Positions 34,073 to 49,514 of a stretch of 64,000 nt of DNA are shown piece by piece. Each line of letters opens with the position of its first letter. Position 1 is the stretch's first letter. The DNA lies in assembly GCA_944383915.1 (NCBI GenBank), contig CALWRJ010000023.1, positions 10,274-74,273 on the forward strand, in the 5' to 3' direction. A program made the position numbers and the translations under genes. The notes under the pieces are model-generated. The model did not search any database, was not told the origin of the DNA, and worked only from the letters and a program-made list of their open reading frames with translations. Source of the DNA: an uncultured Clostridia bacterium. Lineage in GTDB: Bacteria > Bacillota > Clostridia > Christensenellales > UBA1242.

Positions 34073-34741
34073 TTAAAATTCGTTTGTCGTAAGGTTTGAA
34101 ATCGGGTTTGTTGACGGGAACAATGGCAGTTCAAAGAAGCCCTGACAAACATTTGTAGAAAACTCTTGACATTGTGGAATGAAGCAATAACCATAACTTG
34201 GTACCAAAAGTTCAGTTTCTGCCACAATCTTAATAATCAACATCACACAGCCTTCAACCGTTGCAATACTACCATCAAATGTTGCTTCCGATATAATTGC
34301 GCTTGCCACAAGTTCTACTTGATAAGGAATAATTGATGCCTGCGGTAAAAACAGCACTACATCTTGCGGAAGGGCTATTACCCCCGTTGCTACTCCTTGG
34401 ACATTGTTTGCATCAGTGTACACGATTTCAATAGGTATGTTGGCGGTCGCAGAAATGCGTGCAAAGTTCGGGCGGTCGTCAAAACGCGTAACAGTAAGAT
34501 TAGACAAAGTCGGCGCAACTGTCATACTAGACTGACCCGAAACAAAGGTTAATGGCGCAGTAGGGTTTGCCGGCGTAAAACTCGTCAACTGTACTTGGGT
34601 GTTGGTTATGTGCTGTTGCTTTAAACACGCATCAAAAACCTTTTTCACTTGAATACAGACCTTTTCGCAAAGACCACGAGTTGGGTTGCCATTAATTGGC
34701 CCTGGAATCTGCTCGGACCTAATACCAGAGAAAAAAGACAT
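34073..34741 (-). CDS. hypothetical protein (222 aa), Cys-containing, probably beta-rich
   Basis: GGAGG RBS and a good minus-strand terminator downstream (33975-34003). No family recognised. Visibly higher GC than its surroundings. Confidence 0.55.
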   Translation of the reverse strand: MSFFSGIRSEQIPGPINGNPTRGLCEKVCIQVKKVFDACLKQQHITNTQVQLTSFTPANPTAPLTFVSGQSSMTVAPTLSNLTVTRFDDRPNFARISATANIPIEIVYTDANNVQGVATGVIALPQDVVLFLPQASIIPYQVELVASAIISEATFDGSIATVEGCVMLIIKIVAETELLVPSYGYCFIPQCQEFSTNVCQGFFELPLFPSTNPISNLTTNEF

Positions 34742-34823
34742 TGCAAATTACCTCCATAAGATTTGCCCGTACATTATATAGTATGCAACCGCTCTTTTTT
34801 GTGACACTTTACTCGCTACGCTC

Positions 34824-34916
34824 GAATTTTGCCTTGGAGTGTGCAATGCACACGGAAAGCCAGCCGAAAGTAAGAGTAATTGTCAAAGTGAGTGGCTCAC
34901 GGCTGAACTTTGAATT
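34824..34916 (+). repeat. conserved 93-nt module, copy 1 (candidate structured RNA)
   Basis: GAATTTTGCCTTGGAG-[GTGTGCA-A-TGCACAC]-GGAAAGCCAGCCGAAAGTAAGAGTAATTGTCAAAGTGAGTGGCTCACGGCTGAACTTTGAATT. Confidence 0.8.
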
Positions 34917-35180
34917 AGGAATTTTGAATTAAGGCTTTACGCTTCGCCTTTGGCTACGCTAAATTAGAAATTAGGAATTAGGAATTAGGAATTAAGGAAG
35001 GAAACCTTCCAAATTAGTAATTAGAAATTAGGAATTTTATTCGCTACGCTCAAATTAGCAATTAGCAGTTAGCAATCTACCACGCAAAGCGAGAATTAGC
35101 AATGAGCAATTAGCAATTAGCAGTTATTGTGCGCGTGCGCGCGAAGCAATTATAGATAAATAAACTTCCTTACAATATTT

Positions 35181-35276
35181 GAATTTTGCCTTGGAGTGTA
35201 CAATAATGTACACGGAAAGCCAACCGAAAGTAAGAGAGATTGTTAAAATGAAAGGCTCACGGCTGAACTTTGAATT
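35181..35276 (+). repeat. conserved module, copy 2
   Basis: Same flanks as copy 1. The hairpin is changed to GTGTACA-ATAA-TGTACAC. Confidence 0.8.
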
Positions 35277-35349
35277 TTGAATTTTGAATTATGGCAGGAA
35301 TTATCAAAAATATATAATATACCCAGCCATAACTGCTAATTGCTAATTG

Positions 35350-37431
35350 CTAACTGCTAATTCTCGCGGAGCGAGTAAGATTCTTTGTTCTCTCGAATAT
35401 ATTTTTTAGTAAAAACTGTTCGTCCGCGTCAGTGTAACCGTTATAGTCCTCTAAATATTTAGGATTGTCAACCTTATCAAAATTATCTTGCAAAATTTTA
35501 TTAAAGTCGTTATAACCTGCCCCGACCGTGATTTTTTTGACGCGATAGTGCGTTTCATCGTTCATCGCTTTATCAAAGCCTACACACACGCGTTTTAAAC
35601 ACTCCACAATCTCATCTTGCAAAACTTTATCGGAGTTGATAATTTTTAAAACACGGCTTGGCACTTCGATGTTGTCTAACGTTACCTGCTTGCGCTTTTC
35701 GTCATACCACACCCACGCCTGCCCAAGTATTCTTTCCCCTTTTTTTATCACCAAAAAACCCGAATTTGCTCGCGTCATACCGTACTCCACGCACTCCTGC
35801 GCCGAATTTCCATAAGTTTGGCAACAGTTCGTTATGTCTCCGAGCACAGCGCCGAGCGGGTCATTTTTAGAAAGAAGTTCGTACGAAACCTTCGTTTTTT
35901 CGGTATCGGGAGCGCATTTAAGTGTTAACTCGTCATCGGGAATGCTAATTCCCTTTAAGTACCACTTTGAAATCGCGTCAAAATCGTCTTGCGAATAACC
36001 GTAATTTGCTAGTAAACTAGCGAGTTTTTCCGTTTTTTCGGTAACATTTTGGTAATTTACGCTTAACAAATAATCTCTTACCATTTTTGGAGTAAGGCGC
36101 TCGTTGTCTTGACGCGTAATTATCTTTTTATTAGGAAAATCTCTCAAAATTTTATTGAAGTTATCGTGCGCCCTGTACATTAAATTCACCCCGTCTTTCA
36201 CCATAAAATCAGGGTTTTCAGGGAAATACAGCATAAAAAACTGTGCAAATTCGTGATTGTATTTTTTGTTTTTAGAGTTGAAATCAAACATTTCGTGAAT
36301 TTGAGTTTCATTATAAACGCCAAGAATATGCTCTTTTATAAAATTTGTAGCAATGCTAGACTCTTTTCCGTCTCTACTAAACACCCCTAGCGCGTGCGCA
36401 AGCCCAAAAAGCGAAATTCGATTTACATCGTTTTGAATATTCGCAATTTTTGAGATTTCACGCCAATTTTTTTCGTTGTTATTGCAGTAAAATAAAGGAA
36501 TTTCAGATAAAAATAGGTTGTCTACAAGTGAATAGTGCGGAATAGTTTTATCGAGTTTTAGCCACTCGATTAGTGCTGGATAACTATCATAATTGCCGAT
36601 TAATTTATCTAAATTGTTCCATTTTGTCGCCTTGCTTTTGATAATCTCGTCATTTATTACCCTAAAATCGCCACTTAAATCATATATATAGCAGTTTCCT
36701 TTTCTATCTAAAAACATAGCGTTTGTGTTATTCGTTTCTAACCTTTTTAAACCGTCATTTTCGGTAAAAAAATGCACATTTTCGTATGCTCGAAGTTCGG
36801 TTACGCCGTTATAAACATCGGCAAGCGTATAAATCCCAATAGAAGTATGTTTAATGCTATCAAAATGGCTATTATGATATTTCCGCAAGCCGTTTGGCAA
36901 AAAAATGCTGTGAATATTTGTATTTGTAAGTGCTTCGCTTTCAATAAAAAGTAAATTGTCGTTTAATTTGATTTTTTGTAAACTTTCGCAACCGAAAAAA
37001 GCCCTAGCCATAATCATAAGCACATTTTTAGGACAAGCAAAACTTGATAGTGATTTGCACCCTTCAAAACAACTTTCGCCCAACTCGATTACTCCGTCCG
37101 CCGAAACAAACTCAACACTATTAAGGCTCTCGCACCCCATAAACGCACCAAAGGGAATGTTCTTTAAATTAGGACAATCAATTTTCACCCTTTTTAAACT
37201 TGTACACCCTAAAAAAGCGCACTCGCCAAACTCGGTTAAAGATTTTGGCAAGTCCACTTCCTCTAAATTTACAAAATCTTTAAAAGTCTCGCTTTTTATT
37301 CCCGAAAAATCATTAGGAAAATTAATTTTTCTAACACTTCTTTTGTCTAATCCTTCCAACTTCTCAGGCGACATCGTGCTGTCTTTTAGTATAAGCGTTC
37401 CGTCCGCCTGTAAAATATAATTCTCCGCCAA
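35350..37431 (-). CDS. LRR_5 (BspA-type leucine-rich repeat) protein with an uncharacterised Cys-rich C-terminal domain (693 aa)
   Basis: TTG start after GGAAGGAAGG. Clear LRR_5 units in the N-terminal 200 aa (ECAFLGCTSLKRV, FGAFMGCESLNSV, ESCFEGCKSLSS, RAFFGCESLQKI). The C-terminal domain carries DITNCCQTYGNSAQECVEYG...GQAWVWYD. No signal peptide. The last ~10 codons and the TAG stop lie in repeat-derived sequence. Confidence 0.7.
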   Translation of the reverse strand: MAENYILQADGTLILKDSTMSPEKLEGLDKRSVRKINFPNDFSGIKSETFKDFVNLEEVDLPKSLTEFGECAFLGCTSLKRVKIDCPNLKNIPFGAFMGCESLNSVEFVSADGVIELGESCFEGCKSLSSFACPKNVLMIMARAFFGCESLQKIKLNDNLLFIESEALTNTNIHSIFLPNGLRKYHNSHFDSIKHTSIGIYTLADVYNGVTELRAYENVHFFTENDGLKRLETNNTNAMFLDRKGNCYIYDLSGDFRVINDEIIKSKATKWNNLDKLIGNYDSYPALIEWLKLDKTIPHYSLVDNLFLSEIPLFYCNNNEKNWREISKIANIQNDVNRISLFGLAHALGVFSRDGKESSIATNFIKEHILGVYNETQIHEMFDFNSKNKKYNHEFAQFFMLYFPENPDFMVKDGVNLMYRAHDNFNKILRDFPNKKIITRQDNERLTPKMVRDYLLSVNYQNVTEKTEKLASLLANYGYSQDDFDAISKWYLKGISIPDDELTLKCAPDTEKTKVSYELLSKNDPLGAVLGDITNCCQTYGNSAQECVEYGMTRANSGFLVIKKGERILGQAWVWYDEKRKQVTLDNIEVPSRVLKIINSDKVLQDEIVECLKRVCVGFDKAMNDETHYRVKKITVGAGYNDFNKILQDNFDKVDNPKYLEDYNGYTDADEQFLLKNIFERTKNLTRSARISS

Positions 37432-46687: not shown

Positions 46688-48091
46688 ATGATTTCACTCG
46701 TGGTTACCGCGGACACCAAAAATTACAACCCCGCCGAGCGCGACTTAGCCTTTTCGGCGTTGCTTGCAAAGTACAAAGAACCATTTGAAATTGTGTATGT
46801 TGCGAACGCAGACTACCCCTACCTTGACGAACTCCGTAAAATCGCTTCTGGAAATGACAGAAAACTTGTAGTTACTGCGCCAACAACGAATATTAATACA
46901 CAAATCTACACAGCACTAGACTATACGGACAACGGTGATGTTTTGCTAGCGACACTAGACACCAATCTTGCTCTAATTCAGAAAATTATCGAAAAGCACC
47001 GTGAAGGCGCTGATTTGGTATTTGTTAAGCAACAAGAAAATTGGTTTAAAAATATGTTTATCGCACTTGGGCGCGCTACCTATCAATTAGGGCTAAAAAT
47101 ACTCGGGCGCGGGCACGATATGTGCTGTGACGCGCGCGTCTTGTTTTTAAACAATCGTTCGGTAAATACAATTATTTTAAACCCAACTTTAAGTAAGGCT
47201 TTAAGGCTTGTCAACCCAGACCCTGACAAAACTTCGCGCATTCTTGACGAAAAAGTCATTTACGACAACCCCACGCCTACGCAAAAAGGCGCAAACAATT
47301 CGTTTATGTCGCTTGGTATCGTTTCGCTATTTTATATAATTGCCCTACTTGTCCTTGCAATCGTTTTCCCACTATGCAATTCGGGCGTTTACACCGTTTG
47401 GATACTTGTCGCACTAATTTTGTGGCTTGTACTAGGAATTATCGGCTGTGTCGTTGTCGCGAAATTTATTTACAACACGCGACTAGGACTGCCCGTTGCT
47501 ATAAATCTGGCTGGCGAGCCGATAATTAATATTACCGAAGTCGTGGCAAGCGAATACCAAACTGTATTTGACGAAAACGAACCAATTACTACCCCAAACA
47601 CCGCTTTCGCTGATGAAATTGATGAAAATGAAAGCGAAAATGTCGATGTTGATGTAGTAAATCTTGACGAAACGATTGTAGACCTTGATAACACAGAAAC
47701 CGCAGAAAATGACACAAAGTCTGCGCAAAACGAAACAAAGGACGCAAAAACAAGCGCTAAGGCAAAACAAAGCGCAACTTCAAAAGCGAAAATTACTTCA
47801 AGTAAAGCAAGAGCGCAAAGCGAAACAGACACTTTAAATATTGCTGAAACCGAAAACACGACTAAAAAAGCAGAAAACACTTCAAGCGATGCTAAAACGG
47901 AAAGCGCCAAAACAACTAAAAAAGCAACACAATCCCCTAGCACCGCAAAGAAAACAACAACTAATAAGAAAACGACTAAATCAAGCACGAAAACAACAAC
48001 CAAAAAAGCAAGTGCTACTAAAACAACCGCAAAAAAATCAACTAAAACAGGCGCAAAGAAACCGAAGGTTTCAGTGCGTAACCGCACTTCA

Positions 48092-48097
<6 letters not shown>
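46688..48097 (+). CDS. membrane protein with a degenerate GT2-like N-terminal domain and a K/T-rich disordered tail (469 aa)
   Basis: N-terminal 190 aa loosely GT2-like (EIVYVANADYP, GDVLLATLDTN). Two TM helices and a low-complexity lysine/threonine tail. The TAG stop (48095-48097) is inside the first AATTAGC heptamer of the downstream repeat. Confidence 0.55.

Positions 48098-49514
<1,417 letters not shown>

What the first reader, a model, noticed from the sequence alone, without database searches (positions are those of the whole stretch)
35341..35380. Heptamer arrays act as six-frame stop cassettes; the LRR gene reads into one and takes its last codons and stop from the repeat
Seven is coprime to three, so three or more tandem copies present the TAG of AATTAGC/AATTAGG/AATTAGT in all three forward frames. 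The TAA of the complement (GCTAATT and relatives) likewise appears in all three reverse frames. AATTCAA gives TGA only on its complement. ORF 35350-37431 ends ...NLTRSARISS-TAG. The encoding sequence CTTACTCGCTCCGCGAG-AATTAGC-AGTTAG is a repeat module (compare GCAAAGCGAGAATTAGC at 35087 and 52573) followed by the array. The native 3' end of the gene therefore appears to have been replaced by an insertion that immediately terminates translation.
Basis: seen in the sequence. Interest (0 to 1): 0.6.

Follow-up and report, generated by a model that had tools for sequence, protein, structure and literature searches.

The report
Repeat element supplies gene's last codons
The last ten codons and the stop codon of a leucine-rich-repeat gene come from a copy of a 7-base-repeat element that fills the gaps between genes in this gut Clostridia genome, which is a real but ordinary side effect already described for similar repeats in other bacteria.

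Summary
ORF 35350-37431(-) ends ...NLTRSARISS-TAG. Its last 33 nt match two intergenic copies of a module (small GC hairpin plus AATTAGC array) at 32/33, and the module has about 60 copies in the genome.

The arithmetic also holds: 188 of 311 arrays close all six frames. The event recurs. About 20 of 908 genes take their stop from a mosaic block, and 8 take at least 3 codons, including clpX and a DUF2207 gene.

Blocks hug gene 3' ends (19 of 108 flanks overlap the gene) and avoid 5' ends (1 of 74).

Homologues without repeats carry 20-40 unconserved residues where this protein has 8 native plus 10 repeat-coded ones. A short, dispensable tail was therefore probably replaced, and the conserved domain is intact. 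No empty-site orthologue exists to prove this.

"Stop cassette" as a purpose is not supported. 29% of random AT-rich heptamer arrays close all six frames. Ordinary read-through here meets a stop after a median of 7 codons. Published stop-hugging heptamers (GGGAATC, GGGGAYT) contain no stops at all.

MacGregor 2015 described the same logic for TAACTGA repeats. This scan has reported the same pattern on other genomes. Verdict: a new member of a known kind, of low to moderate interest.

The parts
35350..37431 (-). Gene for a 693-aa protein. It has an N-terminal BspA-type LRR region (PF13306) and a conserved C-terminal domain of about 490 aa with no known family.
   Evidence: One search found no PDB sequence match for the C-terminal domain.
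35350..35382 (-). Repeat-coded end of the gene: 10 codons (NLTRSARISS) plus the TAG stop. It equals the module AATCTTA-CTCGC-TCC-GCGAG-AATTAGC-AGTTAG.
   Evidence: 32/33 identity to C21:548 and C21:582, and 62 copies with <=6 mismatches. One search gives the coverage boundary at 35382/35383.
35363..35375 (-). Small GC hairpin of the module (CTCGC-TCC-GCGAG: 5-bp stem, 3-nt loop), here translated as part of the tail.
   Evidence: Other copies carry different stems at the same position (CACGC-AAA-GCGTG, GCAAC-TTC-GTTGC, CTTGC-TAC-GCAAG).
35330..35362 (-). Heptamer array AATTAGC-AGTTAGC-AATTAGC-AATTAGC-AGTTA, in the gene's sense. The TAG of its second unit (35350-35352) is the stop codon used.
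34808..35382 (.). Mosaic repeat block that fills the whole spacer down to the promoter region of the next gene. Every base is repeated elsewhere in the genome.
35094..35126 (+). Opposite AATTAGC array. It forms an inverted pair with 35330-35362 around a GC hairpin, a core of about 90 nt (35180-35270), a TGAATTT array (35264-35290) and an AT-rich linker.
46688..48097 (+). Second case in the window: a 469-aa ORF ending ...NRTSN-TAG. Its AAT TAG is the first unit of array 48092-48124.

Best explanation
A copy of this lineage's gene-less mosaic repeat lies against, and 33 nt into, the 3' end of the LRR gene. The repeat is a palindromic block whose outer arms are a small GC hairpin followed by about four AATTAGN heptamers.

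The block most likely inserted, or spread by recombination between blocks, into the gene's unconserved C-terminal tail. The incoming reading frame runs through the hairpin module and is closed by the TAG of the second heptamer. The protein therefore keeps its whole conserved domain and swaps a short native tail for NLTRSARISS.

The outer arms almost always face genes in the AATTAG orientation, and 7 is coprime to 3. Any frame that enters is therefore closed within a few codons. This makes insertions at gene 3' ends nearly harmless and explains why they survive there but not at 5' ends or inside genes. The stop content is a by-product of an AT-rich heptamer, not a demonstrated function.

Shown: the repeat origin of the tail and stop, recurrence across the genome, the 3'/5' asymmetry, and restriction to this species and its sister. 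Inferred: that a native tail was replaced, how the block arrived, and that the event is neutral.
For: Repeat origin of the tail.

Recurrence:
- 19-22 of 908 genes have their stop inside a mosaic block.
- 8 genes have >=10 nt of repeat-coded tail.
- These include clpX (NALHAN*), a DUF2207 gene (20 codons), an HTH gene and a small-multidrug-export-family gene.

Asymmetry:
- 19 of 108 block flanks facing 3' ends overlap the gene, against 1 of 74 facing 5' ends (Fisher p = 4e-4).
- 36 of 108 against 3 of 74 lie within 10 nt (p = 7e-7).
- The median gap is 23.5 nt against 145 nt.
- Blocks occupy 17% of convergent, 10% of tandem and 3.4% of divergent spacers.
- Only 89 of 8038 array bases lie in coding sequence.

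Orientation: the first array met on leaving a 3' end is AATTAGN in sense in 76 of 89 cases.

Native tails in relatives without the repeat:
- LRR homologues carry 20-40 aa after Q[FY]LL.
- ClpX of sister G003 ends KKAEKIANI, against KKER+NALHAN here.
- The DUF2207 orthologue of G003 keeps 35 aa after LGVG, where G000 has 5 native plus 20 repeat-coded.

Lineage restriction: arrays occur only in G000 and sister G003 among the 17 genomes of the genus searched, and in none of 40 other genera of the family.

Precedent: MacGregor 2015 (PMC4679880), Rehm 2015 (PMC4692102) and Coxiella MITEs (PMC5896051).
Against: - No empty site is available for this gene, so replacement rather than extension of the tail is inferred only from homologues about 50% identical, whose tails are themselves variable.
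- No target-site duplication or displaced 3' remnant was seen.
- No mobilising enzyme was found. The only Y1 transposase in the genome is a pseudogene, and no PF05635 gene is present in G000.
- The common variant units (AATGAGC, AATTAAN, AGTTAGC) all keep a forward stop, while stop-less variants at the TAG positions are rare. This could hint at selection on the stops.
Confidence: 0.75

Rival explanations
1. The arrays are selected translation barriers. On this reading the element, or the host, keeps stops in all six frames. The purpose would be to make insertions harmless, or to keep ribosomes off the hairpins and core of the block.
For: - 60% of arrays close all six frames, against 1.5% of same-length non-repeat intergenic windows.
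- The outer arms face genes in the TAG orientation in 85% of cases.
- Frequent variant units keep a stop, while T>C at position 4 (0 copies) and A>G at position 5 (1 copy) are rare.
- The stop used lies in the first unit in 7 of 9 cases (P = 0.008).
Against: - 29% of random heptamer x4 arrays of this composition close all six frames, and 78% close one strand.
- The families are variants of one motif, so this amounts to one or two independent draws.
- Copies are not independent events, so variant counts carry no test.
- The AATTCAA family has no forward stop.
- The first-unit excess falls to 4 of 6 (P = 0.10) once the cases where only AATTAG is shared are removed.
- Heptamer families with the same stop-hugging layout (GGGAATC, GGGGAYT, CCCCAGT) have no stops in any frame.
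- Read-through in ordinary DNA here ends after a median of 7 codons.
Confidence: 0.12
2. The blocks are functional 3'-end elements of mRNAs, such as stabilisers, processing sites, terminators or protein-binding sites. On this reading they are placed at stop codons by selection, and the overlap with the LRR tail is a consequence of that placement.
For: - Blocks are tightly apposed to 3' ends, are in sense orientation and are rare in divergent spacers.
- Hairpins at the same position differ in sequence but stay self-complementary.
- Rehm 2015 found similar heptamer repeats to be transcribed.
Against: - All but one of the relatives searched lack the arrays entirely at the same housekeeping operons, so they are not needed.
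- The block composition is a mosaic and varies from place to place.
- There is no T-run terminator signature after the hairpins and no Rfam family match.
- Insertion tolerated only where it does no harm gives the same distribution.
Confidence: 0.1
3. The array grew in place by slippage from a native ...AATTAG stop context, without any insertion.
For: In several genes only the AATTAG of the first unit is shared with the ORF, so the stop there could be native. Examples are window 48092-48097, rplJ (C13:23427-23945) and RNase J.
Against: For the LRR gene the translated part includes the 13-nt hairpin and the AATCTTA linker. These are non-heptamer parts of a dispersed module that is 32/33 identical to distant copies. 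Slippage cannot create them.
Confidence: 0.03

Closest known systems
TAACTGA heptanucleotide direct repeats of marine Beggiatoaceae and some cyanobacteria (MacGregor 2015, PMC4679880)
   Same: - Intergenic heptamer arrays whose forward orientation gives stops in all three frames.
- The paper states that the arrays can therefore overlap ORF ends only by a few codons.
- It lists 13 ORFs whose stop is overlapped.
- It argues that insertions are tolerated only at the periphery of proteins.
   Different: - The unit differs: TAACTGA against AATTAGN.
- TAACTGA is open on the reverse strand, while AATTAGN closes both strands.
- TAACTGA arrays lie mostly just upstream of start codons. Here the arrays hug 3' ends and form the arms of palindromic mosaic blocks with GC hairpins.
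G-rich heptamer repeats of Xanthomonas (GGGAATC) and Nostoc (GGGGAYT) (Rehm et al. 2015, PMC4692102)
   Same: - About four units per array.
- Convergent inverted pairs.
- Enriched between co-directional and convergent ORFs and rare between divergent ORFs.
[quoted passage not shown]
   Different: Those units are G-rich, form quadruplexes and contain no stop codon in any frame. The units here are AT-rich, rich in stops and combined with other modules.
MITEs and REP-like elements that overlap gene 3' ends (for example Coxiella QMITE1/2, PMC5896051; REP/BIME; Delihas 2007, PMC2759123)
   Same: Small non-coding dispersed repeats overlap the C-terminal codons of functional genes by 1-50 bp. In Coxiella enhC they supply 33 C-terminal residues followed by a stop.
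   Different: Those elements have defined terminal inverted repeats or REP hairpins and known or suspected transposases. Here the arms are heptamer arrays, and no intact mobilising gene is present in this genome.

Membership tests
Prokaryotic heptanucleotide tandem-repeat families (period-7 long SSRs: Xanthomonas GGGAATC, Nostoc GGGGAYT, Beggiatoaceae TAACTGA, cyanobacterial STRR) | Short tandem arrays of a 7-nt unit, typically about 4 units, present in many copies per genome | tested here: met
   233-311 arrays, with modal length 29 nt (about 4 units). Counts by unit are AATTAGC 126, AATTAGG 57 and AATTCAA 26.
Prokaryotic heptanucleotide tandem-repeat families (period-7 long SSRs: Xanthomonas GGGAATC, Nostoc GGGGAYT, Beggiatoaceae TAACTGA, cyanobacterial STRR) | Intergenic, under-represented in coding DNA and between divergent ORFs | tested here: met
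   89 of 8038 array bases lie in coding DNA; blocks occupy 3.4% of divergent, 10% of tandem and 17% of convergent spacers.
Prokaryotic heptanucleotide tandem-repeat families (period-7 long SSRs: Xanthomonas GGGAATC, Nostoc GGGGAYT, Beggiatoaceae TAACTGA, cyanobacterial STRR) | Close to or overlapping stop codons on the sense strand, often as convergent inverted pairs | tested here: met
   36 of 108 3' flanks lie within 10 nt and 19 overlap; 76 of 89 are in sense; the arrays at 35094 and 35330 form an inverted pair.
Prokaryotic heptanucleotide tandem-repeat families (period-7 long SSRs: Xanthomonas GGGAATC, Nostoc GGGGAYT, Beggiatoaceae TAACTGA, cyanobacterial STRR) | Same unit sequence as a described family | tested here: not met
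   AATTAGN and AATTCAA differ from all the described units compared. This is therefore a new sequence family within the class.
REP/BIME/REPIN elements mobilised by RAYT | An intact RAYT (Y1 transposase, PF01797) in the genome | tested here: not met
   a single PF01797 match at C7:1772-2101, with two in-frame TAA stops.
REP/BIME/REPIN elements mobilised by RAYT | 20-40-bp palindromes with a conserved GTAG or CGTC head | tested here: not met
   the hairpins are 13-15 nt (5-6-bp stem, 3-nt loop). They are preceded by AATCTTAC or TACC, not by GTAG or CGTC.
Classical MITE | Terminal inverted repeats plus a target-site duplication | tested here: inconclusive
   The inverted heptamer arms could serve as terminal inverted repeats. 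No duplication is visible at the LRR junction, but the other edge of the block is buried among further modules.
PF05635 (23S rRNA IVS protein) cassettes bracketed by inverted heptamer arrays (earlier finding of this scan) | A small PF05635 gene between the inverted arrays | tested here: not met
   no PF05635 match in G000; sister G003 has two such genes. One of them (L044) is bracketed by AATTAGG-type arrays at 1395-1429 and 1848-1882. The window's blocks are gene-less.

The most novel reading that the evidence does not exclude
The AATTAGN arms are kept stop-rich by selection. On this reading a mobile palindromic cassette carries built-in six-frame translation stops, so that it can land in gene tails and operon spacers without making toxic fusion proteins, and so that ribosomes cannot melt its hairpins. 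That would be a self-insulating design that helps explain why heptamer (non-multiple-of-3) arrays are the favoured arm of such elements in AT-rich genomes.
Probability: 0.12. Interest if true: 0.55.

Novelty: new member of a known kind. Interest (0 to 1): 0.27.

Why it matters
The case shows concretely how a dense selfish repeat family reshapes protein C-termini. About 2% of the genes in a 1.18-Mb genome are affected, including clpX. It also shows why such elements pile up at gene 3' ends.

For annotation, short odd C-terminal peptides ending at AAT-TAG in this lineage are repeat-coded and should not be read as conserved motifs. The finding does not establish a new mechanism. The logic that a heptamer gives stops in all frames was published for TAACTGA repeats in 2015.

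Tried and rejected
- Rfam scan of the whole window: no family matched.
- Exact-pattern scan of metagenome contigs with 32 nt of the gene's 3' coding part: no match.
- The two other public contigs that carry this protein are 100% identical across the gene and 433 nt downstream, and both break inside the repeats. No polymorphism or empty site could be seen.
- The nearest homologues in 16 same-genus genomes are <=51% identical and are not in the same gene order. In L004 and L005 the LRR gene lies upstream of parC, while here it lies downstream. They serve only as a guide to tail length.
- A 12-mer repeat mask was useless in this AT-rich genome because it covered 44% of the sequence. It was replaced by a 16-mer mask.
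- Counts of unit variants cannot test selection, because the copies are not independent.
- PDB sequence search of the C-terminal domain found nothing.
- The idea that the module originated from this gene was rejected. About 60 copies sit between arrays in spacers, and no homologue has this tail.

Full report
**1. The observation**

On the minus strand the window reads ...AAA GAA TCT... CTT ACT CGC TCC GCG AGA ATT AGC AGT TAG at 35350-35382. ORF 35350-37431(-), 693 aa, therefore ends ...KNIFERTKNLTRSARISS*. Tandem Repeats Finder places a 4.7-copy heptamer array at 35330-35362, and the stop codon used (35350-35352) is the TAG of its second unit.

The arithmetic in the finding is correct. Three copies of AATTAGC, AATTAGG or AATTAGT put TAG in all three forward frames and TAA in all three reverse frames. 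AATTCAA gives only TGA, on its complement. The comparison sequence GCAAAGCGAGAATTAGC occurs at 35084 and 52571.

**2. The tail is repeat DNA**

A BLAST of 34700-35450 against the whole genome shows that every base from 34808 to 35382 is repeated elsewhere, and that the similarity stops at 35382/35383, inside the gene.

The last 33 nt of the gene (AATCTTA-CTCGC-TCC-GCGAG-AATTAGC-AGTTAG) match two intergenic copies on contig C21 at 32/33. They match 62 places in the genome with six or fewer mismatches. In almost all of these places the module lies between two AATTAGC arrays. In the LRR gene it is preceded by unique coding DNA.

The module is a small GC hairpin (5-6-bp stem, 3-nt loop) followed by an array. 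Other copies carry different but still self-complementary stems at the same position. Ten codons and the stop are therefore repeat-coded.

**3. The genome and the repeat family**

The window lies in a 1.18-Mb genome of about 35% GC, in 23 contigs and 97% complete. The LRR protein's relatives come from Clostridia and Christensenellales MAGs.

The genome holds 233-311 heptamer arrays, with modal length 29 nt. They are parts of palindromic mosaic blocks. I defined 210 blocks covering 21.8 kb.

Arrays of this kind occur only in this species and one sister species (G003) among the 17 genomes of the genus. They were not found in 40 other genera of the family. Earlier follow-ups of this scan described the family itself. 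I concentrated on the question of stops and gene ends.

**4. Genome-wide count**

I made my own gene calls: 908 genes covering 82% of the genome.

- 9 stops lie fully inside an array and 12 touch one.
- 19-22 stops lie inside a mosaic block.
- 8 genes have at least 10 nt of repeat-coded tail.

The genes with the longest repeat-coded tails are:

| Gene | Repeat-coded tail |
|---|---|
| DUF2207 gene | 20 codons, reading through a two-unit array and a hairpin |
| 546-aa ORF | 10 codons |
| small-multidrug-export-family gene | 8 codons |
| clpX | NALHAN* |
| HTH gene | not separately counted |
| LRR gene | 10 codons |

The stops of clpP, tig, rplJ, RNase J and dUTPase touch the first unit of an array.

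The informative control is the other end of genes:

| Measure | Flanks facing 3' ends (n = 108) | Flanks facing 5' ends (n = 74) | Fisher p |
|---|---|---|---|
| Overlap the gene | 19 | 1 | 4e-4 |
| Within 10 nt | 36 | 3 | 7e-7 |
| Median gap | 23.5 nt | 145 nt | |

Blocks occupy 17% of convergent, 10% of tandem and 3.4% of divergent spacers. Only 89 of 8038 array bases are in coding sequence. The first array met on leaving a gene is AATTAGN in the gene's own sense in 76 of 89 cases. This follows from the palindromic build of the blocks.

The density of block edges per nucleotide is about the same just downstream of stops (1-2 per nt) as in the last 9 nt of genes, and it decays further in. There is thus no spike that would suggest attraction to the stop itself.

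**5. Was a native end replaced?**

In an alignment of the 40 best homologues, the conserved C-terminal domain ends at GYTDAxxQ[FY]LL. After it come unconserved tails of 3-36 residues, and none ends like NLTRSARISS.

The closest homologues in the genus have no heptamer array downstream and carry 20-23 residues after that motif. The sister species' homologue carries 40. The window protein has 8 native residues followed by 10 repeat-coded ones. This fits replacement of roughly the last 10-30 residues of a dispensable tail, with the whole conserved domain left intact.

Two better-conserved genes show the same pattern:

- ClpX of the sister species ends KKAEKIANI with no repeat downstream. Here it ends KKER+NALHAN.
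- The DUF2207 orthologue of the sister species keeps 35 residues after ...LGVG. Here 5 native residues are followed by 20 repeat-coded ones.

Direct proof for the LRR gene is lacking:

- The nearest homologue is about 50% identical.
- The two other public contigs with this protein are identical to the window through the gene and 433 nt of repeats.
- A metagenome pattern scan found nothing.

**6. Are the arrays stop cassettes?**

As a description, yes. 188 of 311 arrays close all six frames, against 1.5% of non-repeat intergenic windows of the same lengths.

As a purpose, the evidence is weak:

- A random heptamer of this intergenic composition, repeated four times, closes all six frames 29% of the time and one whole strand 78% of the time.
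- All families here are variants of one AATTNNN motif, so this is effectively one or two draws.
- One family (AATTCAA) has no forward stop.
- Ordinary DNA after normal stops in this genome gives the next in-frame stop after a median of 7 codons.
- Published heptamer families with the same layout contain no stop in any frame. That layout is about four units, convergent pairs, within 50 bp of or overlapping the stop on the sense strand, and rare between divergent ORFs. The families are GGGAATC in Xanthomonas and GGGGAYT in Nostoc (Rehm 2015, PMC4692102).

Two hints point the other way:

- The common variant units (AATGAGC, AATTAAN, AGTTAGC) all keep a forward stop, while stop-less variants are rare.
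- The stop used is in the first unit in 7 of 9 cases (P = 0.008).

The copies are not independent, however, and the second figure falls to 4 of 6 (P = 0.10) when ambiguous junctions are removed.

**7. Comparison with what is known**

MacGregor 2015 (PMC4679880) described the same logic for TAACTGA heptamers. Forward repeats give stops in all three frames, so they can overlap ORF ends only slightly. Thirteen ORFs have their stop overlapped, and insertions survive only at the periphery of proteins.

Coxiella MITEs overlap the C-terminal codons of functional genes and supply 33 residues to enhC (PMC5896051).

No intact mobilising gene is present here. The only Y1 transposase is a pseudogene, and G000 has no PF05635 gene. 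The scan has also reported heptamer arrays donating stops and last codons in several other genomes.

**8. Verdict**

The LRR gene's last ten codons and its stop are repeat-coded, most likely after insertion or spread of a mosaic block into an unconserved tail. The six-frame stop content explains why such events are tolerated, but it is best read as a by-product. This is a new sequence family of a known kind of element and a known kind of effect.

Noticed in passing
window 34825-34912 and 35180-35270: Two copies of a hairpin-rich core of about 90 nt lie in the same spacer (GCCTTGGAGTGT.CAAT..ACACGGAAAGCCA.CCGAAAGTAAGAG...GGCTCACGGCTGAAC). Both are antisense to the LRR gene. A further copy lies near C10:122996. 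There was no Rfam match.
   Followed up: partly
window 35350-36831 (-), residues about 200-693 of the LRR protein: The C-terminal domain of about 490 aa is conserved in more than 100 Clostridia LRR proteins. It has no Pfam family and no PDB sequence match. It contains a CCQTYG motif and ends at GYTDAxxQFLL.
   Followed up: partly
G000:C10:206644-211336 (tig-clpP-clpX): All three genes of this housekeeping cluster have stops that touch or lie inside mosaic blocks. The clpP-clpX spacer is 581 nt here and about 300 nt in sister G003. G003 also has an array there, but 25 nt after a shorter ClpP tail.
   Followed up: partly
G000:C7:1772-2101 (L001): This is the only IS200/IS605-type Y1 transposase (PF01797) match in the genome. 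It carries two in-frame TAA stops and is probably a dead gene.
   Followed up: no
G000 contig ends C1:1-25, C2:27-55 and C8:1-20; L038 and L039 ends: Several contigs begin in heptamer arrays. Two independent metagenome assemblies of the same strain both break at the same point inside the block downstream of the LRR gene. The repeats limit assembly, so repeat counts are lower bounds.
   Followed up: no
G000: C15:36-314, C21:82-411, C12:16849-17361, C13:16783-18552, C19:33249-34007 and others: A paralogous family of surface or LRR proteins shares a near-identical C-terminus (...QTDSGNHDFN* or ...GNSGVL*). It is followed by the same hairpin terminator (AAAAATTCACTTCAAAAGGGGTGAATTTTTT). This repetition comes from the gene family, not from the mosaic repeat.
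   Followed up: no
L044 (G003:C2:43449-46760), 1395-1882: In the sister species a PF05635 (23S rRNA IVS protein family) gene is bracketed by inverted 35-nt AATTAGG-type heptamer arrays. G000 has the arrays but no such gene.
   Followed up: partly
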